From the NCBI GenBank assembly GCA_033764015.1, contig JANRJK010000036.1, positions 276,858 through 340,857 on the forward strand: a stretch of 64,000 bases of DNA, read 5' to 3'. The notes beneath the pieces are model-generated. The model ran no database searches and was not told the DNA's origin. It saw only the letters and a program-made list of their open reading frames with translations. The DNA is from Candidatus Sumerlaeia bacterium. Lineage in GTDB: Bacteria > Sumerlaeota > Sumerlaeia > SLMS01 > JANRJK01. A program made the translations under genes and the position numbers. Numbering within the stretch: the first letter of the stretch is position 1; each line of letters begins with the position of its first letter. This document shows, piece after piece, positions 7,569 through 51,853 of the stretch.

Positions 7569-9998
7569 ATGCGCCCCCCGGGGCGCCCTCGGAAAGCGGA
7601 CATGGACGGCAGACCCCTCCCTGCCGAAGTGCCGGTGGCCCGGAACGCCTCGCAGACCTCTGCCCCGCCGCAAAGCCACGGCGGGACCGGGCCCTGTCTT
7701 CCGGCGCTCCTCTCCCCCCTCCCCTTCACCGAAGGCGACCTGACCGCAGGCTGCGAGCACGAGCTCCAAGCCGCCGTCTTCGGGACGCGCGACAGCGTCG
7801 ACCTCCCCCTCGTTATCCAACAGTCGAACTTCTACCGGAACCTGTGCAAGCGGGTGGAGCGCGGCGACGCGCCCCGCAGCGCGCTATCGAAGCTGGAGCA
7901 CCTCCTCGAGGACGCGGGGCCGCAGGGCTGGGACAATAGCTGGGTGCGCTTCCCGCTCGCATTCCTGAACGAGGAGGCGCGGGCGACGCTGCGGGCGGAC
8001 CTGCGCGCCGACAAGTCGGACGCCGCGAGCCCGCCCCGCGGCGACGAGCGGAGCTTCTTCGTCGAGCGCGAGGACGGCGACCACTGGGTGCGGGTGCCTG
8101 TGAGCTACCTGCTGAAGCTGTCGCTGGCGCAGATCGCCGGCGGCGACGACGACCTGCCGGCGGGGCTCCGCGCGGCGGTCCGCGATCTGCAGCAGCACTA
8201 CCTCTCGGACAACTCGTCCCCGGAGCTGACCAGCTTCCGGGTGGTGCCGCTGCGCGCCTCGCGGGGCCTCGGGCGGGCGCTCGGGACGGAGGCCGCCAAG
8301 CGCCTCCTCCTCACCTACCTCCTCGCCGAGTACGCCAACGACGAGTTCCGCCTGCGCGCCCTCGGGCAGGACGCGTCGGTGCACCAGTCCGCCAGCCCCA
8401 GCGCGCGCCAGCGCGAGATCAACGAGGCAGTGACGGACTCCTTCTACCGCGAGCTCTACATGAGCCCGTGCCTCTCCGGCTGGGAGCGCGGCGAGGAGAA
8501 GCTCGAGTACATGCGGCTCTGCCACCAGGTGCTGACCTGGAGCCAGCTCTGCGCGACGGTGAAGCTGCGCGACGCGGGGATCGTGGCGAACAACCTGATG
8601 GTGCCGCCCAGCCTCTCGACGCTGAGCCTCGCCAACAACGGCGTGCACATCACGATCGGCAGCCGGCGGCTCTCCGCGATGGGGCGCGCCGGGCACCCGG
8701 ACTGGACGCCCGCCGCGGAGAAGCGCGTCGGCGACCTGGTGACGAAGGTGGTCGAGCACTTCATGCCGCTCTTCCCCGGGGTCTTCAGCGCGGCGCCGCG
8801 CCGCATCGACTTCCGCCAGTTCCACCCGGAGCTGGTCCTCGGCTACCTGCCGCACGAGCTGGACTACTCGCACCTGCGCCCGCTCTGGCGCCGCTGGCGG
8901 CGCAAGGCGGACATCAAGTTCCTCGGCGCGACGATCACGCCCTTCGGCCCCCGGTGGATCGACGCGGCGGCGGGGACGCTGCTGGGGCTGCGCGGCGACT
9001 TCGTCCCCGACGCGCGGCTGCTCGAGTACCTGGTCTCGCCGCTCAGCACCCCCGAGAGCCCCGCGCTGGACGGGAGCGAGGGGAACTGGGACCGGCTGAA
9101 GAGCGACCTCGCGGACCACGGAGTCTTCCACAAGCGCCTCTCGCTCTACCTGATGTTCCGCCAGCGCTTCGCGAAGCAGCACGGCTTCTGCGGCTATGAA
9201 GGCCGCGCGCACAGCCTCTTCCCGCGCTTCAGCGACCTCGGCGACGCGGCGAGCCTGCAGGCGCTCCTGTGCGCCCACGCCACCCGGCTGGTCGCGACCG
9301 GCGCGGTGGCGCACGCGGACATCCCCGACACGCCGGAGGCGGAGAGCGAGCGGCGCCAGTTCTTCTTCGCCGGCGCCATCGGCCTCAAGAGCCTCAACAC
9401 CCGCCCGGAGGCGGGGAACCGCTTCCTCGCGGGGCTGCTGTCGCGCGCCGCGGACGCGAAGCCGAGCCGCCGCTATCCGGACCGCATGAAGGTGAAGCTC
9501 GCCGGCTACCGCCGCGCGCTGGTGGCGTCGCTGCGCGAGGACTCCGCGGACCTGGTGGAGCAACTCGGCCTGGGGGGGATGCTGGACGGCCTCGAGCGGC
9601 GCCTCGATCCCGCGACCGGCGAGGGCGCGGCGGAGCAATTGACGCGCGGCATCCTCGCGGTGGCCGGCGCGCGGACGCCGATGGCGCTCTCCGCCCGCGA
9701 GTTCGACGAGGCGGCGGAGCAGCACGCGCTGGGGCTGCTGCGCGCGGCGCACTTGGCGGAGGGCCTCGAGTCGCTGCGCGCGGACCTCGCGCTGGCGGCG
9801 TCGCACGGCCACCCCGCGGCCGCCGCCGCAGGCGAATGGCCCGCCCTCTGCCGCGAGGCGGAATCGGCATTCGCGCGCGGCTCGCGGCTCGATCCGCGGC
9901 TCGTGCGCAGGCTCCTTGCGGCAACCGTCGCGTCCATCGCGGCGGACGCCGAACTCGACCACCTCCCGGAGGCGAATGATGCAGCACCAGTACATTGA
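7569..9998 (+). CDS. Large hypothetical protein (809 aa) with no recognisable family. First gene of a three-gene lipid-associated module.
   Basis: Long ORF of normal amino-acid composition. It has no signal peptide, no TM segment and no motif I recognise, but carries conserved-looking Cys pairs (CEHE, CKRVE, CLSGWE, CHQVLTWSQLC). Its 3' end overlaps the start of the PSD-family gene by about 20 nt. Confidence 0.55.
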   Translation: MRPPGRPRKADMDGRPLPAEVPVARNASQTSAPPQSHGGTGPCLPALLSPLPFTEGDLTAGCEHELQAAVFGTRDSVDLPLVIQQSNFYRNLCKRVERGDAPRSALSKLEHLLEDAGPQGWDNSWVRFPLAFLNEEARATLRADLRADKSDAASPPRGDERSFFVEREDGDHWVRVPVSYLLKLSLAQIAGGDDDLPAGLRAAVRDLQQHYLSDNSSPELTSFRVVPLRASRGLGRALGTEAAKRLLLTYLLAEYANDEFRLRALGQDASVHQSASPSARQREINEAVTDSFYRELYMSPCLSGWERGEEKLEYMRLCHQVLTWSQLCATVKLRDAGIVANNLMVPPSLSTLSLANNGVHITIGSRRLSAMGRAGHPDWTPAAEKRVGDLVTKVVEHFMPLFPGVFSAAPRRIDFRQFHPELVLGYLPHELDYSHLRPLWRRWRRKADIKFLGATITPFGPRWIDAAAGTLLGLRGDFVPDARLLEYLVSPLSTPESPALDGSEGNWDRLKSDLADHGVFHKRLSLYLMFRQRFAKQHGFCGYEGRAHSLFPRFSDLGDAASLQALLCAHATRLVATGAVAHADIPDTPEAESERRQFFFAGAIGLKSLNTRPEAGNRFLAGLLSRAADAKPSRRYPDRMKVKLAGYRRALVASLREDSADLVEQLGLGGMLDGLERRLDPATGEGAAEQLTRGILAVAGARTPMALSAREFDEAAEQHALGLLRAAHLAEGLESLRADLALAASHGHPAAAAAGEWPALCREAESAFARGSRLDPRLVRRLLAATVASIAADAELDHLPEANDAAPVH

Positions 9999-10971
9999 GC
10001 GGACGAGCGGCGCGGTCCGCACGGAACGGCTCTTCAAGGACAAGGTCGTGCGCACGATCTACAGCGACGTGCGCGAGAAGGCGCCCTTCCTCCTCAACGC
10101 GCTGACGGCGGGATGGACAACGGACCTGATCGCATTCGTGACCTACGACTTCCCCGCAGTGCGCTGGGTGGCCGGGAACCAGAAGTTCCTCGACGAGCTG
10201 AAGCTCGACTACTCCGAGTGCATCCAGCCGATCGAGTGGTTCGACACGCCGCGCAAGGTGTTCGAGCGACAGATCCGCTACTGGGAGTGCCGGCCGATGC
10301 CGGAGGACGAGGGCGTCGCGGTGTCGCCGGCGGACTCGCGCGTGATCGTCGGCAGCTTCGCCGAGACGTCCTCCGTGTTCCTGAAGGACAAGTTCTTCAC
10401 GCAGGCGGAGCTGCTCGGGCGCGAGCGCTGGCGCGATCGGTTCGCCGACGGCGACTTCGCCGTGTGCCGCCTGACGCCGGACAAGTACCACTACAACCAC
10501 TCGCCGGTTTCCGGCGTGGTGGAGGACTTCTACGCGGTCGAAGGCGCCTACCACGCCTGCAACCCGACGGCGATCGTCACGGTCGGCGACACGTACTCGA
10601 AGAACCGCCGCGTGGTGACGATCATCGACACGGACGTCGAGGGGGGCTCGCGCATGGGCAAGGTGGCCCTGATCGAGATCGTCGCGCTGATGATCGGCGA
10701 CGTGAAGCAATCCTACAGCGACGAGAAGTACGACGCGCCGCGGGACGTGGCGCCGGGCCTCTTCATGAAGCGCGGCCAGCCCAAGAGCCTTTACCGCCCC
10801 GGCAGCAGCACCGACATCGTGGTGTTCGAGAGGGGCCGGGTCGCCTTCGAGCCCGACATCGTGGCGAACATGCGGCGCACCGACGCGGAGAGCCGCTTCT
10901 CCCTAGGCTTCGGCCAGCCGCTGGTCGAGACGGAGCTGAACGTGCGCAGCGCGATCGCGCGGCGCCTCTGA
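9976..10971 (+). CDS. psd: Phosphatidylserine decarboxylase family proenzyme (pyruvoyl-dependent)
   Basis: Start trimmed to MMQHQYIERT. The conserved PSD motif R-L-x-P-x-DYH-x-x-H-x-P is present (CRLTPDKYHYNHSPVSG). A G-S-S-T segment (YRPGSSTDIVVF) sits at the expected position of the LGST self-cleavage site near the C-terminus. Confidence 0.75.
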   Translation: MMQHQYIERTSGAVRTERLFKDKVVRTIYSDVREKAPFLLNALTAGWTTDLIAFVTYDFPAVRWVAGNQKFLDELKLDYSECIQPIEWFDTPRKVFERQIRYWECRPMPEDEGVAVSPADSRVIVGSFAETSSVFLKDKFFTQAELLGRERWRDRFADGDFAVCRLTPDKYHYNHSPVSGVVEDFYAVEGAYHACNPTAIVTVGDTYSKNRRVVTIIDTDVEGGSRMGKVALIEIVALMIGDVKQSYSDEKYDAPRDVAPGLFMKRGQPKSLYRPGSSTDIVVFERGRVAFEPDIVANMRRTDAESRFSLGFGQPLVETELNVRSAIARRL

Positions 10972-10992
10972 CCTGCGAAAGGACCGCGTTCC

Positions 10993-12114
10993 ATGCAGGA
11001 GCTGATCTTCATTGGAGTCCTCGGCGGCGCGCTCGCCGCGCTTTACGTCTGGGCGTTCCGCACGCTCCCCGGAGCGCGCTGGCAATTCGCCGCCGCGGTA
11101 CCGGTCGCGGCGCTCCCGGACGGCGGCTGGCGCGGACTGAACCTCACCTGGTACGGCGTGTTCTACGCGCTCGGCATCGCGGTCTCGAGCGCGCTCGGCT
11201 TCGTGCTGCTGAAGTCCATCGGCGCGCCGACGCTCCCGGTGCTGCTGCTCCTCGTCGGCACCGTGGCCGTCTGCATGCCGGCGGCGCGCTTCCTCGCCGG
11301 GATCATCGAGCGCAAGAAGGGCACGCAAAGCGTCGCCGCGGGGTTCTTCACCGGCATGGTGCTGGTCCCACCCGCGCTGCTGCTGATGAACGCATTGGTT
11401 GATTCAGTCAACCTTCCGCCGCTGGCGACGCTGGCCGCGTTCGGCGCGGCCTACGCGCTCGGCGAAGGCATCGGACGCCTCTCGTGCATCAGCTTCGGCT
11501 GCTGCTACGGGCGCCGCGTGGTCGACCTCGGCGCGGGGCTCCGGCGGCTGGTCGCGCCCTTCGCCGTCCGCTTCCGCGGGCCGACGAAGAAGATCGCCTA
11601 CGCCTCCGGCTGGGAAGGCGTCGCGGTGGTGCCGATCCAGGCGGTGACGGCGACGCTCTACACGGCGGTGGCGCTCGGGGCGGCGTGGCTGTTCCTCGCG
11701 GGCGAGTACGGCGCGGCGCTGCTGCTCTCCATCGGGTTCACCCAGGTCTGGCGCGTGGCGTCGGAGTTCCTCCGGGCCGACTACCGCGGCGGGCGCAAGT
11801 TCACCGTGTACCAGTGGATGAGCCTCTCGGGCGTCGCCTACGTCGCGGCCTGGGTGGCGGTGCTGCCGCGCGAGGCGGACATGGTCCGCGCCGACATCGC
11901 GCAGGGGCTCGCCGCGCTCTGGACCGCCCCCGGCGTCATCGCGGTGCAGGCGCTCTGGCTCGCGGCGTTCCTCTACGCGGGCCGCAGCACCGTCACGGGC
12001 TCGACGCTGCGCTTCCACGTTGTCGACGAGCACCGCAAGTCCTTCGCGGCTCAACCGCCCCGGTCGGCTCCGCGACGCAAGGCGCCGAAGGCGAAGGCGC
12101 TGGCGGGAGCATAG
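10993..12114 (+). CDS. Polytopic membrane protein, prolipoprotein diacylglyceryl transferase (Lgt)-like
   Basis: Seven or more predicted TM segments. GEGIGRLSCISFGCCYGRRV resembles the Lgt signature G-R-[LI]-G-N-F-x-N-x-E-x-[WY]-G (the G-R-L...F...G..YG spacing is kept). Family assignment is tentative. Confidence 0.45.
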   Translation: MQELIFIGVLGGALAALYVWAFRTLPGARWQFAAAVPVAALPDGGWRGLNLTWYGVFYALGIAVSSALGFVLLKSIGAPTLPVLLLLVGTVAVCMPAARFLAGIIERKKGTQSVAAGFFTGMVLVPPALLLMNALVDSVNLPPLATLAAFGAAYALGEGIGRLSCISFGCCYGRRVVDLGAGLRRLVAPFAVRFRGPTKKIAYASGWEGVAVVPIQAVTATLYTAVALGAAWLFLAGEYGAALLLSIGFTQVWRVASEFLRADYRGGRKFTVYQWMSLSGVAYVAAWVAVLPREADMVRADIAQGLAALWTAPGVIAVQALWLAAFLYAGRSTVTGSTLRFHVVDEHRKSFAAQPPRSAPRRKAPKAKALAGA

Positions 12115-12348
12115 GGGGGGGCCGCCTACTGCTGGCCAGCCGCTCCGCGCGGGACAGCCCACCCGTTGACCGCGAGGCGCCCGTCGACTCCAGCGTCGCC
12201 GCCTCGCTGATGAACCGCACACTTGCGGGGCTGGCGAAGGCGAGTGCGTTCCAGGGGCGGGCAGTTCAGGCCCGGGCAAACGCCCACCTCGCGCCACCTT
12301 GCTCCTTGATTCAAGAGTCTAGAACCTGCGACGTTCCCAGACAGGAGA

Positions 12349-14664
12349 ATGGGTGGCGGTATGAGTTTGGAGCGGAGGCAGGGTGGAATGAGCCCGCGAC
12401 CTGACATGAAGGCCGGTGTGATTCGCTTGAACGAAGAGGTAAGGGCGATTAGCGAGCCTGCCTACGGACTGACGCGACCTCCGCTCTCGATCGCGGTTCC
12501 TGTAGGGGCGGAGAATCCGGTGGGGCATATCCGGCTCTATCGCCAACCGATCCTCGCGGCGGCGGAGCGTGCCGGGCGGGCGATGGCCCGCGACGCGGGC
12601 CGGGCATCGGCAGTGTGGCACAAGACCACCCTCGGGGTCTGTTGCTTTGCCATGGTGCTGCGGCACGAGTTGATCCATGCGGCGTGTCATCTGGGCAGAT
12701 TCCACGGCGGGGGACGCTGGCCTTACGAAGCGATGCCGACGGGGGTCCACGAGTTGCTCGCGGAGTTCTTCAAGGACAAGCCTTGGCGCGATCCTCTCCC
12801 GGTGACGCTTCAGCCAAGGCCGGAGGCAATGCAACGCTGGCTGGACTGGTGGCACGCCCAACAGGGGATGCTCTCGGCCAGCAATCCATATCGGCAGCAC
12901 CTACCGTTGCGCGCGCTACGCCCAGAGCCAGTACGTGAAGTGGCGAAGCGCCTGGTGGTTCCGTACCGAACCGAGGCGAAGTCCATGGAGATTTCTGATG
13001 TTGCAGGGGGACTGGACGAGGGGTTGCTCGCTGGCTTCCTCGATTCCACCGCTTCGCCTCTTCCGCCGGAGGGTGTCAGCGCGGGGCACATACGGCTGGG
13101 CCAGACGGGGCTTCTGGAACTGCTCGGCTTCGCTCGTGCGGCGCTGGAGGATGGCCTCCTGGGTGGCGTGGAGGTGCGGCTTTACGAGCAGAAGCCGGAC
13201 AATGTGGAAGTCCCTGTGCACGCCAACGAGGTGCCGCTCAACGTCGAGAGCCTCGAAGCGCTTTTCATCGGGAGTGCCGAGTTGGATGAGCGAGCCCGCG
13301 CGGATGTCAATCGACTATGGAGTGCGGTCTCTGACCGCGATGATGGCCTGCCGCTCGAGGTTTTCCAGTCGCGCCCTTGGGACCTAAGGATGCTGCAGGA
13401 GATGCACAGGTGGTTCGCCGCGGCGACAGACGTTGGGGAGGGCGAGTTCTCGTCGATGGTTATCGACATCAAGACTAGGCGCCCTTGCGACCATTTCCTC
13501 TGGGAGGAGACATTGATTCAGATGCGCGCCGGGGAAAGTGTCGAGCGTCGGCTGGCACATTGCCTGGACGATCTTGCGGCCCTGCTAGAGCGGGTGCGGA
13601 GTCTTCTCCGCTCCGGGCGAATCGGAGAAGTGACGGGCCAAGCGGAGGCGTTGGGAGCTTACGTCAAGAGTAGCGGAGTGACATTGATCCACCCCATTTA
13701 CCTACCATTCCCGCGTGATGTCGTGCTCAAGTACTTCGGCCATTCAGGAACCGGCGCCTCGTCGGATGGCGTGGTTGCAGATTCCGCGTTGCAGGCAAGC
13801 GAAGAGGCCGAGAAGAACGTCCGCAAGTTCGAGGAAAGTGCGGCGCGGCGTTTTGCATTCGACGACTCGGCCGCCGATGGCGCACCGCTCGCCACGCTGG
13901 CGCGTGCCTACCAGATCGAGAAGGACGAGACGTTCTGGACGGCGGCGACGTGGATACGCGTCTTCGAGTCGCCGAGGCGTGCGGAGTTGCTGGAGAAGCT
14001 TCTGCGCCAGGCCTTCGACGGGAGAGATCCGATGCCCCTTGACGGCGAACTTGCCGATTGGAGGAGATGCCTCGAGGGTAGGTTGAGACTGAGGCTGGAG
14101 GCAGTACACCCATCACCCGCAAGGTACAAAAAGTGGCTTGGCGAGGAGATCGAGAACGGCGGTGAGTTCCGTCACCTGGTGCCACATGTAGCCCGGGTCG
14201 CCAAGGGGAAGACTCACCTGGAGGGTGGCACGCACGTCGATGCACTCATCGTGAACGAGAGCAATGGCTTCGCCGTCGCCATAGAGGCAAAGGTCCTATC
14301 AGACATTTCCCCATACGTGACCTATGACATGCGGCGAAACCAGATCGCGCGGAACCTCGACGTGATGATGGACGACGCACGGACGCACGGCGCGCGATAT
14401 GAGGGTTTGGAACCCATGTTTCTCGCGCGACGCAGCGATCGGACGCTCTTCCTGCTCCAGACCCCGCGGGTGTTCCAGCGACCCGGCAGGTCGCGCCTTT
14501 ACTGGTACAAGTATCACGACTATATCGCCTCCGACGGGGCCATCCAAGCGGACCTGCCGCATCGAACCGCGGACGAGTGCGCCGGATGGGGCAGGAGGAT
14601 AGGCTGGCTGACGTGGGAGGACTGTCGGGAAATAGACGGCACTATCTGCCAATGGTTGACCTGA
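12349..14664 (+). CDS. Hypothetical 771-aa protein with an N-terminal HExxH metallopeptidase-like motif and a C-terminal PD-(D/E)xK nuclease-like motif, on a lower-GC islet
   Basis: VLRHELIHAACHLG (HExxH, ImmA/IrrE-like context) at about 12655-12696. ...GGTHVDALIVNESNGFAVAIEAKVLSD (hhhD...hhhExK) at about 14221-14305. Sampled GC inside the gene is about 52-63%, against about 70% in the flanking genes. Confidence 0.6.
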   Translation: MGGGMSLERRQGGMSPRPDMKAGVIRLNEEVRAISEPAYGLTRPPLSIAVPVGAENPVGHIRLYRQPILAAAERAGRAMARDAGRASAVWHKTTLGVCCFAMVLRHELIHAACHLGRFHGGGRWPYEAMPTGVHELLAEFFKDKPWRDPLPVTLQPRPEAMQRWLDWWHAQQGMLSASNPYRQHLPLRALRPEPVREVAKRLVVPYRTEAKSMEISDVAGGLDEGLLAGFLDSTASPLPPEGVSAGHIRLGQTGLLELLGFARAALEDGLLGGVEVRLYEQKPDNVEVPVHANEVPLNVESLEALFIGSAELDERARADVNRLWSAVSDRDDGLPLEVFQSRPWDLRMLQEMHRWFAAATDVGEGEFSSMVIDIKTRRPCDHFLWEETLIQMRAGESVERRLAHCLDDLAALLERVRSLLRSGRIGEVTGQAEALGAYVKSSGVTLIHPIYLPFPRDVVLKYFGHSGTGASSDGVVADSALQASEEAEKNVRKFEESAARRFAFDDSAADGAPLATLARAYQIEKDETFWTAATWIRVFESPRRAELLEKLLRQAFDGRDPMPLDGELADWRRCLEGRLRLRLEAVHPSPARYKKWLGEEIENGGEFRHLVPHVARVAKGKTHLEGGTHVDALIVNESNGFAVAIEAKVLSDISPYVTYDMRRNQIARNLDVMMDDARTHGARYEGLEPMFLARRSDRTLFLLQTPRVFQRPGRSRLYWYKYHDYIASDGAIQADLPHRTADECAGWGRRIGWLTWEDCREIDGTICQWLT

Positions 14665-14892
14665 GCGGGAGCTTGATGCCGGACCCGGCACGGGCCGATC
14701 CGGCGCGCAAGAACGCGCTGCGGGGACGTGGGTACCGCTTGGGCGCCATGCGATGAACCGATACTGACCTTCCCGTGCTCTCTTGACGATGTTGCGCTCT
14801 GGCTGCGGCCACGAACCGAGTGTCCGCCCGCAAACCCTACCCCTACCACATGCTGGTCTATCCGGACATCGCCGCGCGGGCCTGATCCAGCC

Positions 14893-16248
14893 CTACCCCC
14901 GGTTCATGCGTTCCGAGATGGCGAAGGCGAGTTCCATGGACTGCTCGTAGTTGAGGCGCGGGTCCGTGGGGGATTCGTAGCCGCTGGCGAGGTCGGCCTC
15001 GGTGACTTGGGAGGCGCCGCCGATGCACTCGGCGACCTTGTCGCCGGTGAGTTCGAAGTGGACGCCGCCGAGGACGGAGCCCGCCGCGCGGTGCAGGTCG
15101 ATGGTGAGTTGCACTTCGCGGGCGATGGATTCGAAGGGGCGCGTCTTGCGTCCGGAAGCGGTGGTGATCGTGTTGCCGTGCATCGGGTCGCAGACCCAGA
15201 CGGGGCGGCGTCCGGAGGCGCGCATCGCTTCGAGGAGCGGGGGGAGCGCGGCCTCCACCTTGCCCGCGCCGAAGCGGCAGATCAGCAGCAGGCGCCCCGG
15301 TTCCGCGCCGGGATCGAGCGTGTCCGCGAGGCGGAGCAGCTCGTCGGGCGTCGCCTTGGGGCCGATCTTGACGCCGAGCGGGTTGCGGATGCCGCGGAAA
15401 TATTCGATGTGGGCGCCGTCGGCCTGGCGGGTGCGCTCGCCGATCCAGGGGAGGTGGCAGCCGAGGTTGTAGTGGCCCTCGCGGCGCGGCACGCGGCGGG
15501 TCAGCGCCGACTCGTAGGGCAGGTGCAGGCCCTCGTGGCTGGTGTAGAACTCGACGCGGTGCAGCTCGTTGATCGGCGTCTCGCAGATGCGTTCGATGAA
15601 GTCGATGGAGGAGGCGATGGAGCCGCGGATCGCGAGGTAGGCGTCGCGGATCGCGGGCGCGAGGTTGCCGCGCTCGAGGAAGGCGAGGTCCCAGTATTCG
15701 GGGTGGTGGAGGTCGGCGAAGCCGCCGCTCATGAGCGCGCGGATGAAGTTGAGCGTCATCGAGGCGTGGGCGTAGCCGTCGAGGAGGCGCTGCGGGTCGG
15801 GGCGGCGGGCTTCGGGGGTGAACCCCGGACTGTTGACGAGGTCGCCGAAGTAGCTCGGCAGCGTCTCGCCGCCGATCGTTTCGGTCAGCGAGGTGCGCGG
15901 CTTGGCGTACTGTCCGGCGAAGCGGCCCACGCGGATGATCGGTTTGCCGATGCCCTGCGAGAGCACGAGGCTCATCTGGAGCAGGATCTTCAGCTTGTTG
16001 GTGATCTGGTCGGGCGCGCAGGAATCGAAGGTCTCGGCGCAGTCGCCGCCCTGCAGGAGGAAGCGCTTGCCGAGGGCGGCCTCCGCGAGGCGCTGGCGGA
16101 GCCGCTCGATCTCCCAGGAGGTGACGAGCGGGGGGAGCGAGTGCAGGCGCTGGACCGCGGCGGCGAGCGCGGCGGGGTCCGGGTAGTCGATGGATTGCTC
16201 CGCCGGCTTCCCGAGCCAGCTTGTCGGGGACCAGTCCTCCGCGGTCAT
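14893..16248 (-). CDS. 3-deoxy-7-phosphoheptulonate (DAHP) synthase, class II
   Basis: At 451 aa with ...GRFAGQYAKPRTS...NLGCHLPWIGERTRQ...VWVCDPMHGNT, it matches the type II (plant-like/AroAII) DAHP synthase family along its full length. Confidence 0.9.
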   Translation of the reverse strand: MTAEDWSPTSWLGKPAEQSIDYPDPAALAAAVQRLHSLPPLVTSWEIERLRQRLAEAALGKRFLLQGGDCAETFDSCAPDQITNKLKILLQMSLVLSQGIGKPIIRVGRFAGQYAKPRTSLTETIGGETLPSYFGDLVNSPGFTPEARRPDPQRLLDGYAHASMTLNFIRALMSGGFADLHHPEYWDLAFLERGNLAPAIRDAYLAIRGSIASSIDFIERICETPINELHRVEFYTSHEGLHLPYESALTRRVPRREGHYNLGCHLPWIGERTRQADGAHIEYFRGIRNPLGVKIGPKATPDELLRLADTLDPGAEPGRLLLICRFGAGKVEAALPPLLEAMRASGRRPVWVCDPMHGNTITTASGRKTRPFESIAREVQLTIDLHRAAGSVLGGVHFELTGDKVAECIGGASQVTEADLASGYESPTDPRLNYEQSMELAFAISERMNRG

Positions 16249-39114: not shown

Positions 39115-39185
39115 GCGCGGCTCCTTGCCGGGCGCGAGGATTCGCGCGGAGCCCGGGGGTGTCAAGGCGCGCGCCGGGCGGGCCG

Positions 39186-39647
39186 TTAGGGACGCGCGAT
39201 GCGCAGCGCTCCGGCCCGGGCCTCCTCGACGATTTCCCGCACGGGAACGCCGAGGCGTTCCGCCAGGGCGCGGCAGTCCTCGAACTCCGGCGCCGCGCGC
39301 AGCGGACGCCCATCGAGCAGGGCCACCTTGACGCGCACCTCGCCGCCGCGCAGCGGGAGGGTCCGCTCCTCGCGCCGCAGCGCGTGGCGGCGCACCCGCG
39401 ATTCGCGCACGCCGAGCGTGGCGGTGTGCGTGAGGAGGAACTCGACGAAGCGCGGCGCGTCGGCGGGCTCGCAGAGGATCTCGACGCGGAGGCCCGCGCG
39501 TCCCTTCTTCATGTGCGTGGGGACAACCACGCAGTCGAGGGCGCCGAGCGAGAGCGCCTTGGCCTGCGCGTCGGCGACCACCTGTGGCGACTCGTCGTCC
39601 AGGTCCGCGGCGAGCATCGCCAGTTCGCGCGTTTCCCAGTCGGCCAT
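39186..39647 (-). CDS. Small protein resembling the C-terminal domain of LarC (DUF111) as a standalone ORF
   Basis: Trimmed to MADWETRELAML... Reads ...VVVPTHMKKGRAGLRVEILCEPADAPRFVEFLLTHTATLGVRESRVRRHALRREERTLPLRGGEVRVKVALLDGRPLRAAPEFEDCRALAERLGVPVREI. This matches my memory of the LarC C-terminal 'MKKNRPG..L.VL.....E.....TTTLGVR......R..L.R....V.T..G.V.VK......K.EYED....A...G.P..EV' pattern. Its start codon overlaps the thiL stop. Confidence 0.4.
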   Translation of the reverse strand: MADWETRELAMLAADLDDESPQVVADAQAKALSLGALDCVVVPTHMKKGRAGLRVEILCEPADAPRFVEFLLTHTATLGVRESRVRRHALRREERTLPLRGGEVRVKVALLDGRPLRAAPEFEDCRALAERLGVPVREIVEEARAGALRIARP

Positions 39648-40684
39648 CAGTGCGCCGCTCCCGGATCGCGGAAGTGCTCGAAGCCGCCGGGGCCCAGCGG
39701 CTCGCGGCGCCCGCCGGACCGCTCGAGGAAGACGCCGGCGCCCGCCTCGACCCGTCCGACTCGGCGGGGCGGCGCGAGGCCGGCGGCGGCGAAGGCTTCG
39801 GCCACGCGGGCCTCGTCCGTCGGCAGGCACGCGACGAGCTCGTAGTCCTCGCCGCCGTACAGCAGCAGGTCGAGCGCGTCCTGTCCCGTCTCGCGCGCGA
39901 AGGCGCCGAGCCCGGGCGAGGGCGTCAGCGCGTCCTCGAAGAGGACGACGGCGGCGGCGCTTTGCCGGGCGACCTCCCAGCACTCATGCGCGACGCCGTC
40001 GCTGACGTCGATCATCGCGAGGCGCGGCGCGAGCGACGCGAGCAGGCGCCCCTCGGCGAGGCGCGGCGTCGGCGCCAGATGCCGCGCGACGAGCGCCGAA
40101 TGGTCGCCGCGCGCGGCCGGCGCGTGGCCTTCGAGGAGCTCGAGGCCCGCCGCGCTCTCGCCCGGCGAGCCGGTCAGGTAGACGAAGTCGCCGGGACGCG
40201 CGGCGCCCCGGGCGGCGACCGGCGCCGACTCCCGCACACGGCCCGAGAGCGACAGCGTAAGGCACCACTGCGGCGCGTGGACCACGTCGCCGCCGATCAG
40301 GCGCGCACCGTGCGCTTGGAGCTCGGCGGCGAGACCTTCGAAGAACTCGACCGCGTCGCGCGCTGCGGCGTCACCGGGCGCGGCGAAGGAGAGGAGCGCC
40401 GACTCGGGCTCGGCGCCCATCGCCGCGAGGTCGCTAAGGTTCGAAGCGGCGAGCTTGCGCCCCACGAGGCGGGGCGAATTGCGCTTCCACCAGCGGAAGT
40501 GGACGCCCTCGACCATCGTGTCGAGCGTCCACACCTGCCGCGTCCCCGGCGGCGGGGCCGGCAGCACCGCGGCGTCGTCCCCCGTGCCAAGGACGAGCCC
40601 CTCGGAGTGCCGCGAAAGGAGCGGGCGCAGCCGTTCGAGCAGGCCCCGCTCGCCCAGGGAGGCGAGGGTATCGGGCGCGCTCAC
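39647..40684 (-). CDS. thiL: Thiamine-monophosphate kinase
   Basis: AIR-synthase-related fold: ...LVLGTGDDAAVL...LDTMVEGVHF...LAASNLSDLAAMGAEP...YLTGSPGESAAGL...DVSDGVAHE... A probable GTG start overlaps the thiE stop (GTGA). The N-terminal part of the track ORF is out of frame with thiE. Confidence 0.75.
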   Translation of the reverse strand: MSAPDTLASLGERGLLERLRPLLSRHSEGLVLGTGDDAAVLPAPPPGTRQVWTLDTMVEGVHFRWWKRNSPRLVGRKLAASNLSDLAAMGAEPESALLSFAAPGDAAARDAVEFFEGLAAELQAHGARLIGGDVVHAPQWCLTLSLSGRVRESAPVAARGAARPGDFVYLTGSPGESAAGLELLEGHAPAARGDHSALVARHLAPTPRLAEGRLLASLAPRLAMIDVSDGVAHECWEVARQSAAAVVLFEDALTPSPGLGAFARETGQDALDLLLYGGEDYELVACLPTDEARVAEAFAAAGLAPPRRVGRVEAGAGVFLERSGGRREPLGPGGFEHFRDPGAAH

Positions 40685-41325
40685 GGGGCCGCCTCGGCGC
40701 CGATCGTGGCGCGCAGGGCGAGGACCGCCGCGGTGATGTCCGGTGCCGCGCAGACGGCGCCGATGACGGCTAGCCAAGCCCGCGGCGCCACGGCGAGGAC
40801 GGCGTGAGCGTTGGCTGCGGAGATACCGCCGATCGCCACGATGGGGGCGGGGCTGGTCCTCGCGGCTTCGGCAACCAGGCCGGTTCCCGTCGCGGGGTCG
40901 GCGTTCGCCTTGGTCGACGTCCCGAAGACGGGCCCGACGGCGACATAGTCCACCGGTTCCGCGAGCGCGGCGGCGAGCTGCCCGGCGTTGTGCGTGGAGC
41001 GGCCAATGAGGAACCCGGCGGCCGTCGCGGCGCGGACCTGCGCCGGCGCGGTGTCGCCCTGGCCCAGGTGGACGCCGTCCGCTCCGCAGGCGGCGGCCAG
41101 CCTCCAATCGTCGTTCACGATGAACAGCGCGGCGGCGTCCGCGGTGAGGCGGCGGATGGCATCGGCGTCGGCGCGGAGCATCGCCTCGTCAGCGGATTTG
41201 TCGCGGAGCTGCACGACGCGCGCGCCGCCCGCCAGGAAGCGCCGCGCCTGCTCGGGGTTGGACAGCCGCGAGAGCGCGCGGTCGGTGATGCAGTAGAGGT
41301 CGGGGCCGTGGGGGAAGCTGGTCAT
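40681..41325 (-). CDS. thiE: Thiamine-phosphate synthase
   Basis: Trimmed to MTSFPHGPDLYCITD... Reads ...VVQLRDK...DGVHLGQGD...GRSTHN...DYVAVGPVFGTSTK...PIVAIGGI. Canonical ThiE. Confidence 0.85.
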   Translation of the reverse strand: MTSFPHGPDLYCITDRALSRLSNPEQARRFLAGGARVVQLRDKSADEAMLRADADAIRRLTADAAALFIVNDDWRLAAACGADGVHLGQGDTAPAQVRAATAAGFLIGRSTHNAGQLAAALAEPVDYVAVGPVFGTSTKANADPATGTGLVAEAARTSPAPIVAIGGISAANAHAVLAVAPRAWLAVIGAVCAAPDITAAVLALRATIGAEAAP

Positions 41326-43883
41326 GGAGGCGTGGGGCTCGCGGCGGGGCGCGGCGCTTCGAACTGCTCGACGAGGATGCGGCCTTCGCGCGGAGTGCCA
41401 GCCACCTTTCTCGGAAGCACCGCCACACCGACGCAAACGGAAGCGGCTCCCGCGGGCACCGGCGCGAGATCGACGATCCGGCGCCAGTGGCCGGGGAACA
41501 TCGAACCAGTCGCCATCGGCTCCGTCGAGTAGAGGGGCGCCGGGATCGGCTTCCGGTCCGCGCCGAAGAAGACGTGGCAGAGAGTCGCCTCGTGGAGGGG
41601 CACTCCCTCGACGCGGAGATTGGCGGCGGCGAGGAGGTACTCGGCATCCCCGACGGGAACGGGGGGCGAAAGGAGCGTCAGGCGCGCGGCACGGTCGGCG
41701 GGAACCTGGACTTCGACGACCGGTGCCCCGGTCGGCCCGGCGGCATCCGCCAGCATCCGGATTTCCATCCCCTTTTCCAAGGCGACCCAGCCCGGATTTT
41801 TCGCTTCGGGCGTCGCCGTGAGATGCCACTCGATCCGCTCGGGGGGGAATTCGACGAGCCGGGGGGCTGCGGGCTTGCCAGTTGGGGCGGCCGGCCCGAC
41901 GCTGACCGATCCCATCTTCCAGCGCGACAGCTCCTCCTTCCCATCGCGCGGCGCGTAGACTCCGATGCGGAGCCGATGCGTTCCCGGCTCGATCCGGAGC
42001 GGGAACGCGTAGGTTTTCGCAGAGCCCTCAGCAGTGGAGAGCTCTGCGAGCTGCGAATGCCGCCCATCCACGGAGAGCTCCGCGAAGAGGCGCTGCGCGG
42101 GGTCCGGCGCGTCGGATCCAAGCCACTCAAGGGCGCCCGCAATAGAGATGCCGCCGACACCTTCCGGAATTGTCACGAGATATTCCAGAGCGCCGTCGCG
42201 CTCGCGGAAAATGGCGCCGTCGTCGACTCGCATCCGCGTGTGGTCGGGGAAGGACGCCATGCGGTGCGGTTCGATGGTGAATGGCCATGGCTCGGCCGGG
42301 GGCAGCGCGCCGTTCGCCGCGTAGGGCAGCGGTACGGACTTGTCCGCGGTCCAGCGCTGGAGGCGCGCGTCCTGGTAGCGGCCCTGCGCGGAGACGCCTG
42401 CGTAGACCGTCTCCAGCCACTCGTCGAAACGGGCGTAGAACTCCGGCAAGGGAAGCTGCTGCCAGGAGTTCACCACCCAGAAAGGCTCCGCGCCGGCCAG
42501 CGTGTGCAGGAACGCGGATTCGATGGCGGGAGCGAGATCCATCCGGTAGACGGGGGCGACGACGTTTGGACCGCCGAACGCGGGAAGCCCGGCCGCGGGG
42601 AGTTTCCGCTCCACGCGGGTTCGGTCCATCTGGTCCACGACGAAGACCGGTTCGCCTTGGCGGTACTTTTCCGCGAGCAGCGGCACGAGCCGGTCGAAGT
42701 TCCGGAGGTCGGCGGCAAAATAGGACAGGAGGAACGGGAGTTGGAGCGCGGCGACCGGCGCCAAGGTGGCTGGCAGCGCGAGGCGCCCGAGGCGGCGCTC
42801 GAGGCGTTCCGCGGCCCAGGCAGCGGCCACCGCGGCACCCAGCAGGAAATACGGGAGCATGTACGCGAGGTAGCGGTTGTAGAACGTGCGCTCGAGCGGG
42901 AGATTGAAAATGAACACGAACGAAAAAATGGGGAGTGAAAGAGCCAGCCACGCGAGCGAGCGCCGCTCCGGCGGCGCCTTTTCGTCGGCGAGCAGCAGCC
43001 CGACTCCGGCGCAGGCGAATCCGGTGGGAATCAGCGCCAACCAGTCGCCAACCGGCAGGCGACGGAAAATCCCGAAGCTCCAGTCGGCGAGGATTCCGAA
43101 AAAGAAGCCGGGGCTGAGCGAGATATTGGTGAGGCCGTCCCCCTGCACTTCGATTATCCCCGTGAATTTGTAGTAAAGATCGGTGCGGATCGCGCGGTGT
43201 GACAGGAAAACCATCACGGCGAGGAAAATGGCTGCGGGAACCAGGACGCGCGCCCGCAGGAAAACCGCGGCGAAGCGGGCGCGAACCGCCGGGTTGGCGA
43301 AGATCTGGATCGTGGCGGCGAGCAGGAGCCCCGCCGTGTTGATGGAGCCGAAGGGCTGGTTGAAATGGGCGGCGTAGGAGACGAGCGTGAACGCCGCCGC
43401 GCCCGGCAGCACCGCGCCGCGGAGGAACGCGGCGAGGGCGCACCACTGGAGCACCGCGTAGAGGAACATGCCGGAGTAGTAGTTCCCGTCCTGCGCGTAG
43501 CCGACCAGGTAGGGGTTGATGGCGACGAGCGTTCCGGCGGCGAGCGCGGTCCGCCGGTCCGCCACCCAGCGGACGGCGATCACCATCGCCGCCACGGCGA
43601 GGGTGGATTGCAGGGCGCCGAGGATCCGGAGTCCCACCGCATTGTCCCCAAAGAGGCCCAGCATCCAGCCCGCGGGGATGACGTGCGCGTGGTGCGTCCA
43701 GGAGACGACCGAATAGTCCTGCGCGGAGGCGGCGGCGAGCATGTTGATCTCGTCCAGCCAGAGCTCCGGTTCGCCGAGTTGGAAGAAGCGGAGGAGCGCG
43801 CCCAGCGCGGCGAGCGCGAGGGCTGCGGGGGCGGCTTCGAGCGCTTCGCCGGCGAGGGACCGCTCCGGCGGCGACCCGCTCAC
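41322..43883 (-). CDS. Polytopic membrane protein with an ArnT/PMT (GT39/GT83-like) glycosyltransferase N-terminal region and a large C-terminal extracytoplasmic domain
   Basis: A likely GTG start (VSGSPPER...) overlaps the upstream gene's stop (GTGA). ...ALGALLRFFQLGEPELWLDEINMLAAASAQ... and more than 10 TM helices resemble 4-amino-4-deoxy-L-arabinose/protein-mannosyl transferases. Its 3' end overlaps the thiE start. Assignment is tentative. Confidence 0.45.
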   Translation of the reverse strand: MSGSPPERSLAGEALEAAPAALALAALGALLRFFQLGEPELWLDEINMLAAASAQDYSVVSWTHHAHVIPAGWMLGLFGDNAVGLRILGALQSTLAVAAMVIAVRWVADRRTALAAGTLVAINPYLVGYAQDGNYYSGMFLYAVLQWCALAAFLRGAVLPGAAAFTLVSYAAHFNQPFGSINTAGLLLAATIQIFANPAVRARFAAVFLRARVLVPAAIFLAVMVFLSHRAIRTDLYYKFTGIIEVQGDGLTNISLSPGFFFGILADWSFGIFRRLPVGDWLALIPTGFACAGVGLLLADEKAPPERRSLAWLALSLPIFSFVFIFNLPLERTFYNRYLAYMLPYFLLGAAVAAAWAAERLERRLGRLALPATLAPVAALQLPFLLSYFAADLRNFDRLVPLLAEKYRQGEPVFVVDQMDRTRVERKLPAAGLPAFGGPNVVAPVYRMDLAPAIESAFLHTLAGAEPFWVVNSWQQLPLPEFYARFDEWLETVYAGVSAQGRYQDARLQRWTADKSVPLPYAANGALPPAEPWPFTIEPHRMASFPDHTRMRVDDGAIFRERDGALEYLVTIPEGVGGISIAGALEWLGSDAPDPAQRLFAELSVDGRHSQLAELSTAEGSAKTYAFPLRIEPGTHRLRIGVYAPRDGKEELSRWKMGSVSVGPAAPTGKPAAPRLVEFPPERIEWHLTATPEAKNPGWVALEKGMEIRMLADAAGPTGAPVVEVQVPADRAARLTLLSPPVPVGDAEYLLAAANLRVEGVPLHEATLCHVFFGADRKPIPAPLYSTEPMATGSMFPGHWRRIVDLAPVPAGAASVCVGVAVLPRKVAGTPREGRILVEQFEAPRPAASPTPP

Positions 43884-44890
43884 CGGGGGGCGGACAGGCG
43901 GTCCGCGGTGGTCTTGACGGGCGACTCGCCGTCTCCGACGGGATCGCCCTTCTCGTCGTAACGGACGGCGGCAAGGCCGAAGGCCCGGGGGGCGATCATG
44001 CCTTCGAGCGTCCACTTCACGCTGAAGTAAGGTGCCTCGCGCATGTCGGAGAAGCGCCACTCGCCGGTCTGCCGGTCGTAGGTGACGGCGGCGATCAGCC
44101 GTTCCGGGGGCGCGTTGGACTCGCGGGATTTGAACGGGGGGGAGCGGAAGATGGCGAGCTCGCCGTCGCGCCACGGCCTCTTGGGCAGGCGCACGAACTC
44201 AGGATCCTCGAACATGGCGGACATGGCGCGGTAGTTCACGGAGGCGCCCGATTCCATGCGGTGCTGCAGGTCGCGGATGTATTCGCGCGGCGGTCGCGAG
44301 CCGGTGAAGGAGACCTGGCGTCCGGGGCTGAGCGAGCGGTACACGTCCTCGGCGTTCATGAGTCGCCAGGCGCCGCGCCAGGAGGCGAGGGCGCTGAGCG
44401 GGGTGGAGAAGTCCTGCACCCGCTCGTTGTAGAAGATGAGGTCGTTGTAGCGCTTGAAGTCGGCCATCATCTTGCGCTTCTCCAGCGCGGCGTCGGCGAA
44501 CTGGACGGCGTAGACGGTCGCGATCAGCGCGGCGGCGCTGGCGGCCAGGAGGAAGGACTGCTTGCGGGCGCGGACGAAGCGGGCGATGTCGCCGGCGCGC
44601 TCCTCGGCGATGCGGAGGCTGCGGCGCTTGTGGTAGGACATCGCCTTCTTGGGCGCCTCGGCCTCGAGGGCCTTGCGGACCTGCTCGTCGCCGTAGCCCG
44701 GCGGGGCGGGGGCGGCGACGGCGGAGGCGGCCTTCTCCTCGCGGCGGCGGGCCTCCTCCGCGCGCATCTCCGCCAGCTTGCGCTCGCGCTCCTCGCGGGC
44801 GCGCTCGTCCGGCGGCTTCAGCTTGTCCCAGTTGCGGCGGCGTCCGCGCTGGATCTCGTCCCAGTCCATCCGTCGGGCGGTGCGCTCCAA
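43880..44890 (-). CDS. Hypothetical single-pass membrane protein with a highly charged N-terminus
   Basis: N-terminal KR/E-rich segment (ERKLAEMRAEEARRREEK), TM helix FLLAASAAALIATVYAV, then a roughly 200-aa extracytoplasmic domain. It is the first gene of the long minus-strand operon. Confidence 0.5.
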   Translation of the reverse strand: MERTARRMDWDEIQRGRRRNWDKLKPPDERAREERERKLAEMRAEEARRREEKAASAVAAPAPPGYGDEQVRKALEAEAPKKAMSYHKRRSLRIAEERAGDIARFVRARKQSFLLAASAAALIATVYAVQFADAALEKRKMMADFKRYNDLIFYNERVQDFSTPLSALASWRGAWRLMNAEDVYRSLSPGRQVSFTGSRPPREYIRDLQHRMESGASVNYRAMSAMFEDPEFVRLPKRPWRDGELAIFRSPPFKSRESNAPPERLIAAVTYDRQTGEWRFSDMREAPYFSVKWTLEGMIAPRAFGLAAVRYDEKGDPVGDGESPVKTTADRLSAPR

Positions 44891-50228: not shown

Positions 50229-50236
50229 GCGGCCGG

Positions 50237-51679: not shown

Positions 51680-51756
<77 letters not shown>

Positions 51757-51776
51757 GCTGGGGACCCGGTTGCCGG

Positions 51777-51853
51777 TGGTGGGCGAAACAGGATTCGAAC
51801 CTGTGACATCCAGCTTGTAAGGCTGGCGCTCTAACCAACTGAGCTATTCGCCC
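51777..51853 (-). tRNA. tRNA-Val (anticodon TAC)
   Basis: The reverse complement GGGCGAATAGCTCAGTTGGTTAGAGCGCCAGCCTTACAAGCTGGATGTCACAGGTTCGAATCCTGTTTCGCCCACCA has a 7-bp acceptor stem, a CCAGC/GCTGG anticodon stem, a CTTACAA loop and an encoded CCA. Confidence 0.85.

What the first reader, a model, noticed from the sequence alone, without database searches (positions are those of the whole stretch)
12349..14664. Lower-GC single-gene islet encoding a 771-aa protein with both HExxH peptidase-like and PD-(D/E)xK nuclease-like motifs
Sampled 60-nt stretches inside this gene run at about 52-63% GC, against about 70% in the flanking lgt-like and DAHP-synthase genes. This suggests foreign origin. 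The protein has an N-terminal zinc-peptidase-like motif (VLRHELIHAACH, reminiscent of ImmA/IrrE-type HExxH) and a C-terminal motif matching the restriction-endonuclease-like core (THVDALIV-x10-VAIEAKVLSD, that is D...ExK). These are separated by about 500 aa of unrecognisable sequence. A sensor/peptidase fused to a nuclease effector is the architecture of several single-gene anti-phage and toxin proteins. I do not recognise this particular arrangement. The flanks are about 230 nt of non-coding DNA on each side, with no tRNA, integrase or obvious direct repeat.
Basis: partly seen in the sequence, partly recalled or inferred. Interest (0 to 1): 0.7.

Follow-up and report, generated by a model that had tools for sequence, protein, structure and literature searches.

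The report
Foreign HExxH–nuclease fusion gene, likely defence
A single gene with foreign-looking composition in a Sumerlaeia genome joins a rare zinc-motif (HExxH) cassette to a widespread but unnamed restriction-endonuclease-like nuclease; relatives of both parts sit in anti-phage loci, so it is probably a self-contained defence nuclease, though the peptidase idea could not be verified.

Summary
ORF 12349-14664 (+) is intact, and its likely start is 12388 (758 aa). It is the most compositionally deviant gene in the window: GC 62.8% against 69.7%, GC3 0.74 against 0.925±0.037 (z = −5).

The protein is not an orphan but a three-part composite.
(1) Residues ~50-210 are a rare module with a strictly conserved RHExxHAACH block. 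Only three related loci are known.
(2) Residues ~221-443 are a linked middle module.
(3) Residues ~447-771 belong to a large family (at least 592 clusters, bacteria and archaea) of mostly free-standing ~300-aa proteins that Pfam, NCBIfam and PADLOC do not name.

In relatives, the HExxH/middle cassette is joined to other nuclease domains, next to MADS genes or a DpdF-like helicase plus WYL. The nuclease module also ends a Tiamat TmtA-like protein and often lies in defence islands.

The metallopeptidase fold could not be tested (model pLDDT 41, no profile hits). No mobility genes were found, and no close genomes were available for a synteny test.

Verdict: a likely defence nuclease, a new variant of a known kind, of moderate interest.

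The parts
12349..14664 (+). Whole ORF: 771 aa from the first ATG. The probable real start is the ATG at 12388 (M14, 758 aa). The stop codon is at 14662-14664.
   Evidence: Identical 3087-nt copy in a second assembly (L001, run DRR729080).
12496..12978 (+). HExxH module (aa ~50-210). Residues invariant in all 4 known sequences: H106, E107, H110, C113, H114, R117, R123, W124, E127, H134, E135, E139, K142, D143, and P180-Y-R-x-H184.
   Evidence: Homology to P0015 (59% identity), P0002 and P0269. No hit to any profile library.
12664..12690 (+). HELIHAACH (aa 106-114), the candidate zinc-binding or catalytic helix.
   Evidence: Lies in a predicted helix of a low-confidence model. Invariant in relatives.
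13009..13677 (+). Middle module (aa ~221-443), function unknown. It travels with the HExxH module.
   Evidence: 44% identity to P0034 aa 5-240. Local phmmer: L007 E = 6e-49, P0269 E = 5e-6. Alignment.
13687..14661 (+). C-module (aa ~447-771): a member of a large unnamed family of PD-(D/E)xK-fold proteins that are mostly free-standing (~300 aa).
14239..14292 (+). Predicted catalytic core D631 ... E646-A-K648, on predicted strands beta2 and beta3. Other conserved residues outside this span: E524/E527 (QIEKDE helix), E584, D652, Q665, R668 and D671.
12115..12348 (.). Upstream intergenic flank (234 nt, GC 0.70). Contains one copy of the 14-nt repeat (12232-12245).
14665..14892 (.). Downstream intergenic flank (228 nt, GC 0.675). 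No coding-like small ORF and no terminator above chance.

Best explanation
The gene is a horizontally acquired composite. It fuses a rare HExxH-plus-middle cassette (aa ~50-443) to the N-terminus of a nuclease that normally stands alone (aa ~447-771, PD-(D/E)xK fold, catalytic D631/E646/K648).

Most likely it is a self-contained defence (conflict) protein. The C-module cuts DNA in a metal-dependent reaction. The N-terminal cassette holds it in check or licenses it, by sensing a trigger or by zinc-dependent proteolysis or binding.

Shown:
- the composite architecture;
- the atypical composition;
- the PD-(D/E)xK fold, with an intact conserved active-site constellation;
- recurrent coupling of the cassette to nuclease domains, and of both parts to defence loci.

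Inferred:
- nuclease activity;
- the defence role;
- that the cassette is regulatory.

Speculative:
- that the HExxH site is an active peptidase.
For: Composite nature: the exhaustive search matches three separate segments to different proteins. The C-module boundary coincides with the N-termini of free-standing homologues.

Cassette-nuclease coupling:
- In L007 the HExxH gene (P0015) is followed 7 nt later by a middle-module + REase-ARP gene (P0034; Pfam E = 1e-13). Both lie directly after mad7 (1e-132) and mad8 (4e-42).
- In L006, P0269 carries a D..ExK-like N-domain + HExxH + middle module. It overlaps a WYL/WCX gene that follows a DpdF/PsyrT-like helicase (2e-92).

C-module in defence settings:
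- Fused to a Tiamat TmtA-like ATPase (P0030, 5e-60) and to a sacsin-like ATPase (P0042).
- Free-standing copies lie beside KAP NTPase, Bro-N, SocA, ParE, PemK and an R-M pair.
- Beside AAA_21 + DUF4276 and Abi_C.
- Beside PLD, an SNF2 helicase, an SMC-like ATPase and rve.
- Beside Cas1/2 remnants, Fic, SLFN/AlbA_2 and HigA-like genes.

Foreignness: GC3 z = -5.05 and codon-choice z = -4.57, uniform across all three modules.
Against: - No biochemical data exist for any member of either family.
- The window gene has no defence neighbours (LGT-like and DAHP synthase), no mobility genes, tRNA or att site, and no PADLOC hit.
- Two of eight free-standing C-module contexts are housekeeping-like, and a third (P0211) has no clear defence neighbours. 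Eight contexts are not a statistical enrichment test.
- The cassette is known from only 4 sequences at 3 other loci, two of them near-identical.
- The peptidase fold is unverified.
- A free nuclease without a methyltransferase or immunity gene needs some other self-protection, and that part is only assumed.
Confidence: 0.55

Rival explanations
1. A solitary nuclease whose N-terminal region is not a peptidase. The HExxHxxCH block would be a structural zinc or DNA-binding helix, and the cassette a target-recognition or oligomerisation domain. The protein would then act like a Type IV (modification-dependent) or structure-specific endonuclease, with no proteolytic step.
For: - No peptidase profile or fold match of any kind.
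- Four possible ligands (H106, H110, C113, H114) lie on one helix, which is unlike the classical zincin spacing (my knowledge).
- Neither the window gene nor the eight free-standing relatives examined has a dedicated partner methyltransferase; the MTase near P0167 belongs to a separate EcoO109I R-M pair and the one near P0242 is a fragment. This fits a nuclease that does not need a cognate methylase.
Against: - The catalytic-type Glu (E107) inside HExxH is invariant, as are acidic residues 25-29 positions downstream (E135, E139). That is gluzincin-like spacing (spacing comparison from my knowledge).
- No DNA-binding domain was detected either.
Confidence: 0.3
2. A housekeeping or domesticated DNA repair/recombination nuclease with no role in conflict. 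The odd composition would reflect an old transfer or amino-acid bias.
For: - The gene sits between housekeeping genes.
- Two relatives sit in metabolic neighbourhoods.
Against: - Patchy distribution across bacteria and archaea with similar scores.
- Fusions to TmtA-like and sacsin-like ATPases, and several defence-island contexts.
- The GC3 deviation is at synonymous sites, so it is not an amino-acid effect.
Confidence: 0.1
3. A toxin of a toxin-antitoxin or polymorphic-toxin pair, or a non-functional relic or assembly chimera.
For: - The gene is single and isolated.
Against: - No coding-like small ORF in either flank.
- No secretion or trafficking domain.
- The ORF is intact and keeps all 37 family-invariant residues.
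- An identical 3087-nt contig was assembled from run DRR729080, although this may not be independent raw data.
Confidence: 0.05

Closest known systems
PD-(D/E)xK (restriction-endonuclease-like) nuclease superfamily. Nearest solved structures: AF1548 (1y88), the Upx nuclease (9wuf), NucS (2vld), SfsA (4dap), N.BspD6I (2ewf), Can2 (8q3y).
   Same: Core alpha-beta-beta-beta-alpha-beta topology. Acidic residue on beta2 and ExK on beta3. Conserved Glu in the preceding helix.
Pfam REase-ARP (PF22558) / PDDEXK_13 nuclease, as found in P0034
   Same: Occupies the same position, after the same middle module, in the split relative at L007.
   Different: hhalign finds no relationship to the window's C-module (probability 0.4%). 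It is a different nuclease family swapped into the same slot.
ImmA/IrrE (M78) and CapP-type HExxH metallopeptidases that switch on defence or SOS-like responses
   Same: An HExxH motif with a conserved acidic residue ~25-29 aa downstream, and an association with defence genes. This is functional analogy only (CapH/CapP: bioRxiv 10.1101/2022.04.27.489752, listed; the rest is my knowledge).
   Different: No profile or structural match. The module is covalently fused to a nuclease rather than paired with an HTH repressor.
Tiamat (TmtA) single-gene defence system
   Same: One relative (P0030) is a TmtA-like ATPase with the same C-module as its C-terminal domain.
   Different: The window protein has no ATPase domain and no TmtA hit.
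MADS (methylation-associated defence system; bioRxiv 10.1101/2023.03.30.534895)
   Same: The closest relative of the HExxH and middle modules lies 22 nt downstream of mad8, on the same strand, after a NERD-kinase gene and mad7. MAD6-8 are that system's mandatory components.
   Different: The window has no mad genes nearby. The published 8-gene operon description does not mention such a gene: 'nuclease' and 'peptidase' each occur 0 times in the text.

Membership tests
PD-(D/E)xK nuclease superfamily (C-module) | Alpha-beta-beta-beta-alpha-beta core fold | tested here: met
PD-(D/E)xK nuclease superfamily (C-module) | Conserved acidic residue on beta2 and (D/E)xK on beta3 | tested here: met
   D631, E646 and K648 are invariant or at least 90% conserved in 47 and 59 homologues, and lie on predicted strands 189-197 and 203-208.
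PD-(D/E)xK nuclease superfamily (C-module) | Metal-dependent phosphodiester cleavage | not testable with these tools
   Needs biochemistry.
Any named PD-(D/E)xK family (Pfam / NCBIfam / PADLOC) | Profile match above threshold | tested here: not met
   0 relevant hits for the window protein and for 47 family members. No PDB sequence hit with the family profile.
Zincin / HExxH metallopeptidases (e.g. ImmA/IrrE M78) | HExxH on a helix, conserved in homologues | tested here: met
   H106-E107-x-x-H110 is invariant in 4 of 4 sequences. It lies in a predicted helix, but the model is low-confidence. The motif alone is expected 0.06 times per protein by chance.
Zincin / HExxH metallopeptidases (e.g. 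ImmA/IrrE M78) | Identifiable third zinc ligand | tested here: inconclusive
   Several invariant candidates (H114, E127, H134, E135, E139). None can be assigned without a structure.
Zincin / HExxH metallopeptidases (e.g. ImmA/IrrE M78) | Sequence-profile similarity to a peptidase family | tested here: not met
   Nothing in Pfam, NCBIfam, PHROGs or the PDB profile search. The only traces are single-member hits at E = 0.2 to DUF1570 and Peptidase_M91.
Zincin / HExxH metallopeptidases (e.g. ImmA/IrrE M78) | Zincin fold | tested here: inconclusive
   The AF2 model from 4 sequences has pLDDT 41 and pTM 0.36, so a fold search would be meaningless.
Known anti-phage systems (PADLOC models) | Match to a system component | tested here: not met
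   No hit for the window protein, P0269, P0167 or P0034. Only neighbours or fusion partners of relatives hit (mad7, mad8, DpdF, WYL, TmtA).
Genomic island / recent horizontal acquisition | Atypical composition relative to the host | tested here: met
   GC3 z = -5.05 and codon-choice z = -4.57. The ORF is the lowest-GC stretch in the window.
Genomic island / recent horizontal acquisition | Mobility hallmarks (integrase, tRNA target, att repeats) | tested here: not met
   No tRNA within 37 kb. The neighbours are LGT-like and DAHP synthase. The 14-nt repeat is at chance level.
Genomic island / recent horizontal acquisition | Empty site in close relatives | tested here: inconclusive
   No close relatives in the collections. 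The best LGT-like match is 48-50% identical and from other phyla. The best DAHP synthase is 63% identical, and none of those loci matched any other queried window gene (lgt, nuoL, nuoM-like, the ORF itself, two upstream ORFs).
Type II restriction-modification | Adjacent cognate methyltransferase | tested here: not met
   None next to the window gene or paired with the gene in the eight relatives' contexts; the MTase genes seen near P0167 and P0242 belong to a separate R-M pair or are a fragment.
Toxin-antitoxin / polymorphic toxin | Adjacent antitoxin or immunity gene, or a trafficking domain | tested here: not met
   Small flanking ORFs lack a coding signature. No such domains were found.

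The most novel reading that the evidence does not exclude
The HExxH-plus-middle cassette is a portable sensor/protease switch. It licenses interchangeable PD-(D/E)xK nucleases: three different nuclease modules at three loci, as a single polypeptide here and as an add-on to MADS and to a DpdF-helicase/WYL operon elsewhere. The window gene would then be a new single-gene anti-phage system. Its C-module would found a large, so far unnamed nuclease-effector family (at least 592 clusters, bacteria and archaea) that Tiamat-like proteins also use.
Probability: 0.35. Interest if true: 0.65.

Novelty: new variant of a known kind. Interest (0 to 1): 0.5.

Why it matters
If the reading is right, three things follow.

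1. It gives a name and a predicted activity to a large family of "hypothetical" proteins spread across bacteria and archaea. None of the standard libraries recognises this family.

2. It suggests what the effector domain of some Tiamat-like proteins is, and points to a candidate accessory effector for some MADS loci.

3. It identifies a rare HExxH cassette that evolution has joined to nuclease domains repeatedly: one confirmed here, one recognised by Pfam, and one inferred from a motif. That pattern marks a regulatory or sensing module worth testing.

It is not a new principle. Nuclease effectors with swapped-in sensor domains are the commonest theme in prokaryotic immunity.

Tried and rejected
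- **Profile searches.** The whole protein and its parts gave nothing in Pfam, NCBIfam, PADLOC, PHROGs or PDB sequences.
- **Word-indexed homologue search.** It found only 2 proteins and wrongly suggested an orphan. The exhaustive search corrected this.
- **N-terminal structure.** pLDDT 41. I rejected it as a basis for any fold claim and ran no fold search on it.
- **AFDB Foldseek.** The library was unavailable.
- **Foldseek against PDB and BFVD.** No significant hits.
- **hhalign of the C-family.** Against P0269's N-domain and P0034's REase-ARP domain: unrelated.
- **P0269 N-domain against PDB.** Nothing. Its nuclease nature stays at motif level.
- **Synteny (empty-site) test.** The genome-contig scan with the LGT-like protein and the metagenome scan with DAHP synthase found only distant relatives, and no metagenome locus matched any of the other queried window genes.
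- **Att-site idea from the 14-nt bracketing repeat.** Rejected as chance-level.
- **Viral contigs, phage records, plasmids.** Neither module occurs in phages. There is one distant plasmid hit, in Bacillus cereus CP015592.
- **HExxH or middle modules next to free-standing C-module genes.** None in the six C-family neighbourhoods fetched by then.
- **Flank scans.** Rfam, promoters, terminators and small ORFs: nothing.
- **Literature.** No paper describes this architecture or 'REase-ARP'.
Full report
**1. The observation**

The ORF at 12349-14664 (+) exists and is uninterrupted. NCBI's record for the identical protein starts at M14 (P0001, 758 aa, 'MAG: hypothetical protein SF028_11330 [Candidatus Sumerlaeia bacterium]'). 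Of the three in-frame ATGs, only that one (12388) has a well-spaced GGAGG upstream.

Both quoted motifs are present. HELIH is at aa 106-110, and VDAL...IEAKV gives D631, E646 and K648.

The compositional claim is correct and strong:
- GC is 0.628 against 0.697 for the window, the lowest of all gene-sized sliding windows.
- GC3 is 0.739 against 0.925±0.037 for 39 other genes (z = −5.05).
- A leave-one-out synonymous-codon score gives z = −4.57.
- The three modules have the same GC3 (0.73-0.75). The 234-nt and 228-nt intergenic flanks are near host level. The deviant unit is therefore the gene itself, and the fusion is compositionally one piece.

The neighbours are an LGT-like gene and a class-II DAHP synthase, followed by a NuoL-like gene. 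Nothing else was found in the flanks:
- no tRNA;
- no Rfam hit, and promoter- or terminator-like sites no more frequent than in shuffles;
- no coding-like small ORF.

A 14-nt exact direct repeat brackets the gene. However, the window holds 287 such pairs, 11 of them at similar spacing, so I treat it as chance.

An identical 3087-nt contig carrying the gene and both junctions occurs in the Logan assembly of run DRR729080.

**2. What the protein is**

All curated libraries are silent on it: Pfam, NCBIfam, PADLOC, PHROGs and PDB sequences. The word-indexed search found only the protein itself and one partial relative.

The exhaustive HMMER scan of 1.84 billion representatives found 368 relatives and showed that the protein is a composite:
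- aa ~50-207 match P0015 (59% identity) and P0002;
- aa 222-451 match P0034;
- aa ~445-770 match a large set of proteins, most of them ~300-320 aa long and free-standing.

**3. The C-module (aa ~447-771)**

*Conservation.* Alignments of 47 and 59 members show these conserved motifs:
- YLPF...HF;
- QIEKDExFW (E524, E527);
- E584;
- LEGxTxVDA (D631);
- FEAKVLSD (E646, K648, D652);
- RNQIxRxxD (Q665, R668, D671);
- LTP, SRLY, PHR, GWxTWED and CxW.

The window protein keeps all 37 invariant positions.

*Annotation.* A profile search retrieves at least 592 clusters from bacteria and archaea (Thermoplasmatales, Thorarchaeota, Deferribacter, Thermodesulfobacteriota and others). All are labelled hypothetical and none has a Pfam domain. 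No member reaches any Pfam or NCBIfam family, and the family profile hits no PDB sequence.

*Structure.* AlphaFold2 with the 59-sequence alignment gives a confident model (pLDDT 85.3, pTM 0.87). Its core runs helix, three strands, helix, strand, and D631 and E646/K648 lie on the second and third strands.

- restriction enzymes, AF1548, NucS and SfsA;
- defence effectors such as Upx, Can2, Card1, Cap4, Avs3, McrC, Shedu SduA, Lamassu LmuA and Hachiman HamA.

The family is a distinct, unnamed branch.

**4. The N-terminal cassette**

The HExxH module is known from only four sequences: the window protein, P0015, P0002 and P0269. The block AMVLRHE(M/L)(V/I)HAACHLGR is invariant, as are R123, W124, E127, H134, E135, E139, K142, D143 and PYRxH.

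A lone HExxH is expected 0.06 times per protein of this composition. Only the conservation lends it weight.

Nothing links the module to any peptidase family:
- Pfam on each of the four sequences gives only single E = 0.2 hits to DUF1570 and Peptidase_M91;
- the profile search against PDB gives noise;
- the AlphaFold model built from four sequences is unusable (pLDDT 41).

The metallopeptidase reading is therefore a motif-level hypothesis. It is compatible with gluzincin-like spacing (E135 and E139 lie 25-29 residues after H110; this comparison is from my own knowledge). The HExxHxxCH arrangement could equally be a structural zinc site.

The middle module (aa ~221-443) has no known relatives beyond P0034 and, weakly, P0269.

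**5. Evidence from relatives**

*The cassette is joined to nuclease domains in each related locus.*
- On contig L007, the HExxH gene (P0015) is followed 7 nt later, in another frame, by P0034 (middle module + Pfam REase-ARP / PDDEXK_13). Together they reproduce the window's layout with a different nuclease. The pair starts 22 nt after mad8. It lies downstream of a NERD-kinase gene and mad7 (PADLOC E = 1e-132 for mad7 and 4e-42 for mad8). These correspond to the mandatory MAD6-8 core of MADS.
- P0269 (700 aa; P0002 is a shorter version) has the order N-terminal D..ExK-like domain, HExxH, middle module. It overlaps a WYL/WCX regulator gene that follows a DpdF/PsyrT-like helicase.
- hhalign finds no relationship among the three nuclease(-like) domains. 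So one cassette is combined with different nucleases.

*The C-module recurs as a terminal domain.* It ends a Tiamat TmtA-like ATPase (P0030, 5e-60), a sacsin-domain protein (P0042), and a protein whose N-terminus looks actin/Hsp70-like to me but is unverified (P0107). One member carries a sigma-70 region-4 HTH.

*Neighbourhoods of eight free-standing members:*

| Member | Neighbourhood |
|---|---|
| P0167 | TraU, KAP NTPase, Bro-N, SocA, ParE, PemK, EcoO109I R-M |
| P0003 | AAA_21 + DUF4276 upstream, overlapping Abi_C downstream |
| P0246 | PLD, SNF2 helicase, SMC-like ATPase, rve |
| P0242 | Cas1/2 remnants, Fic, SLFN/AlbA_2, HigA-like |
| P0199 | Two AAA_14/DUF4143 ATPases |
| P0211 | AAA/STAND-like ATPases and unknowns |
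| P0262 | Housekeeping-like |
| P0238 | Housekeeping-like |

There is no conserved partner gene and no cognate methyltransferase. No HExxH or middle module lies near the six free-standing genes fetched by then.

Neither module occurs in viral contigs or phage records, and plasmids give one distant hit.

**6. Mechanism**

*Most likely (confidence 0.55).* This is a laterally acquired, self-contained conflict nuclease. The C-module is the DNA-cutting effector. The N-terminal cassette keeps it inactive until a trigger appears.

Status of each step:
- Fold and active-site conservation: shown.
- Nuclease activity and defence role: inferred from the superfamily and from guilt by association.
- The regulatory role of the cassette: inferred from its repeated pairing with nucleases.
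- Proteolysis: speculative.

*Main rival (0.3).* The same nuclease, but with a non-proteolytic zinc, DNA-binding or oligomerisation cassette, behaving like a Type IV or structure-specific endonuclease.

*Minor rivals.* A housekeeping repair enzyme (0.1). A toxin, relic or assembly chimera (0.05).

**7. What could not be done**

An empty-site test failed because no close relatives exist in the collections. AFDB Foldseek was unavailable.

**8. Verdict**

This is a new variant of a known kind: a modular nuclease-based defence candidate built from an unnamed PD-(D/E)xK family and a rare HExxH cassette. Interest is moderate (0.5).

Noticed in passing
L007:1-9990 (ENA ERZ4756921 NODE_6432): A MADS-like locus: a NERD + protein-kinase gene, mad7, a 533-aa unknown, and a 1093-aa mad8/HerA/DndH-like gene. 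It ends with an HExxH gene (8001-8582) and a middle-module + REase-ARP gene (8590-9987). These two lie in different frames and are separated by 7 nt, so they are either a two-gene arrangement or one frameshifted gene. This may be an undescribed accessory effector of MADS.
   Followed up: partly
L006:64-6261 (JGI 3300007799 Ga0105049_10026676): A four-gene same-strand cluster: a 370-aa unknown, a DpdF/PsyrT-like DEAD helicase, a WYL/WCX regulator, and P0269 (D..ExK-like domain + HExxH + middle module), which overlaps the WYL gene by 4 nt. It looks like an uncharacterised defence operon.
   Followed up: partly
P0030 (1307 aa), P0042 (934 aa), P0107 (876 aa), P0018 (386 aa): The unnamed nuclease module occurs as the C-terminal domain of a Tiamat TmtA-like ATPase, of a sacsin-domain protein, and of a protein with an apparently actin/Hsp70-like N-terminus (my reading, untested). 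It also occurs behind a sigma-70 region-4 HTH.
   Followed up: partly
L168:6073-9967 (also L169, L170): The closest C-module relative (P0003, 68% identity) lies between an AAA_21 ATPase + DUF4276 pair and an Abi_C gene that overlaps its 3' end by about 30 nt. The arrangement is the same on three contigs.
   Followed up: no
window 41322-44174 (-), 49757-51592 (+), 39159-39845 (+): These are the next most atypical ORFs in the window by codon choice (GC3 0.82, 0.83 and 0.86 against a mean of 0.925). I did not examine them. Some may be over-extended ORF calls.
   Followed up: no
window 12232-12245 and 14919-14932: The exact 14-nt direct repeat TGGCGAAGGCGAGT brackets the gene, and the right copy lies inside the 3' end of the DAHP synthase gene. 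A gapped 35/48 extension exists. Pair counts across the window make it chance-level.
   Followed up: yes
window 10993-12114 (+): The 'lgt-like' neighbour is only a weak LGT match (Pfam E = 1.5e-8). Its best relatives in 185,579 species genomes are 40-50% identical and come from Desulfobacterota, Planctomycetota and others, with none from Sumerlaeota. The lineage is very poorly sampled.
   Followed up: partly
window 7569-9998 (+) and 9916-10971 (+): Two ORFs with host-typical GC3 (0.95), one of them large (809 aa). The 809-aa product has no Pfam hit; the 9916-10971 product was not scanned (the overlapping alternative ORF 10113-11402 gave no hit either).
   Followed up: no
window 51680-51853 (-): tRNA-Asp(GTC) and tRNA-Val(TAC) in tandem, the only tRNAs in the window.
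   Followed up: no
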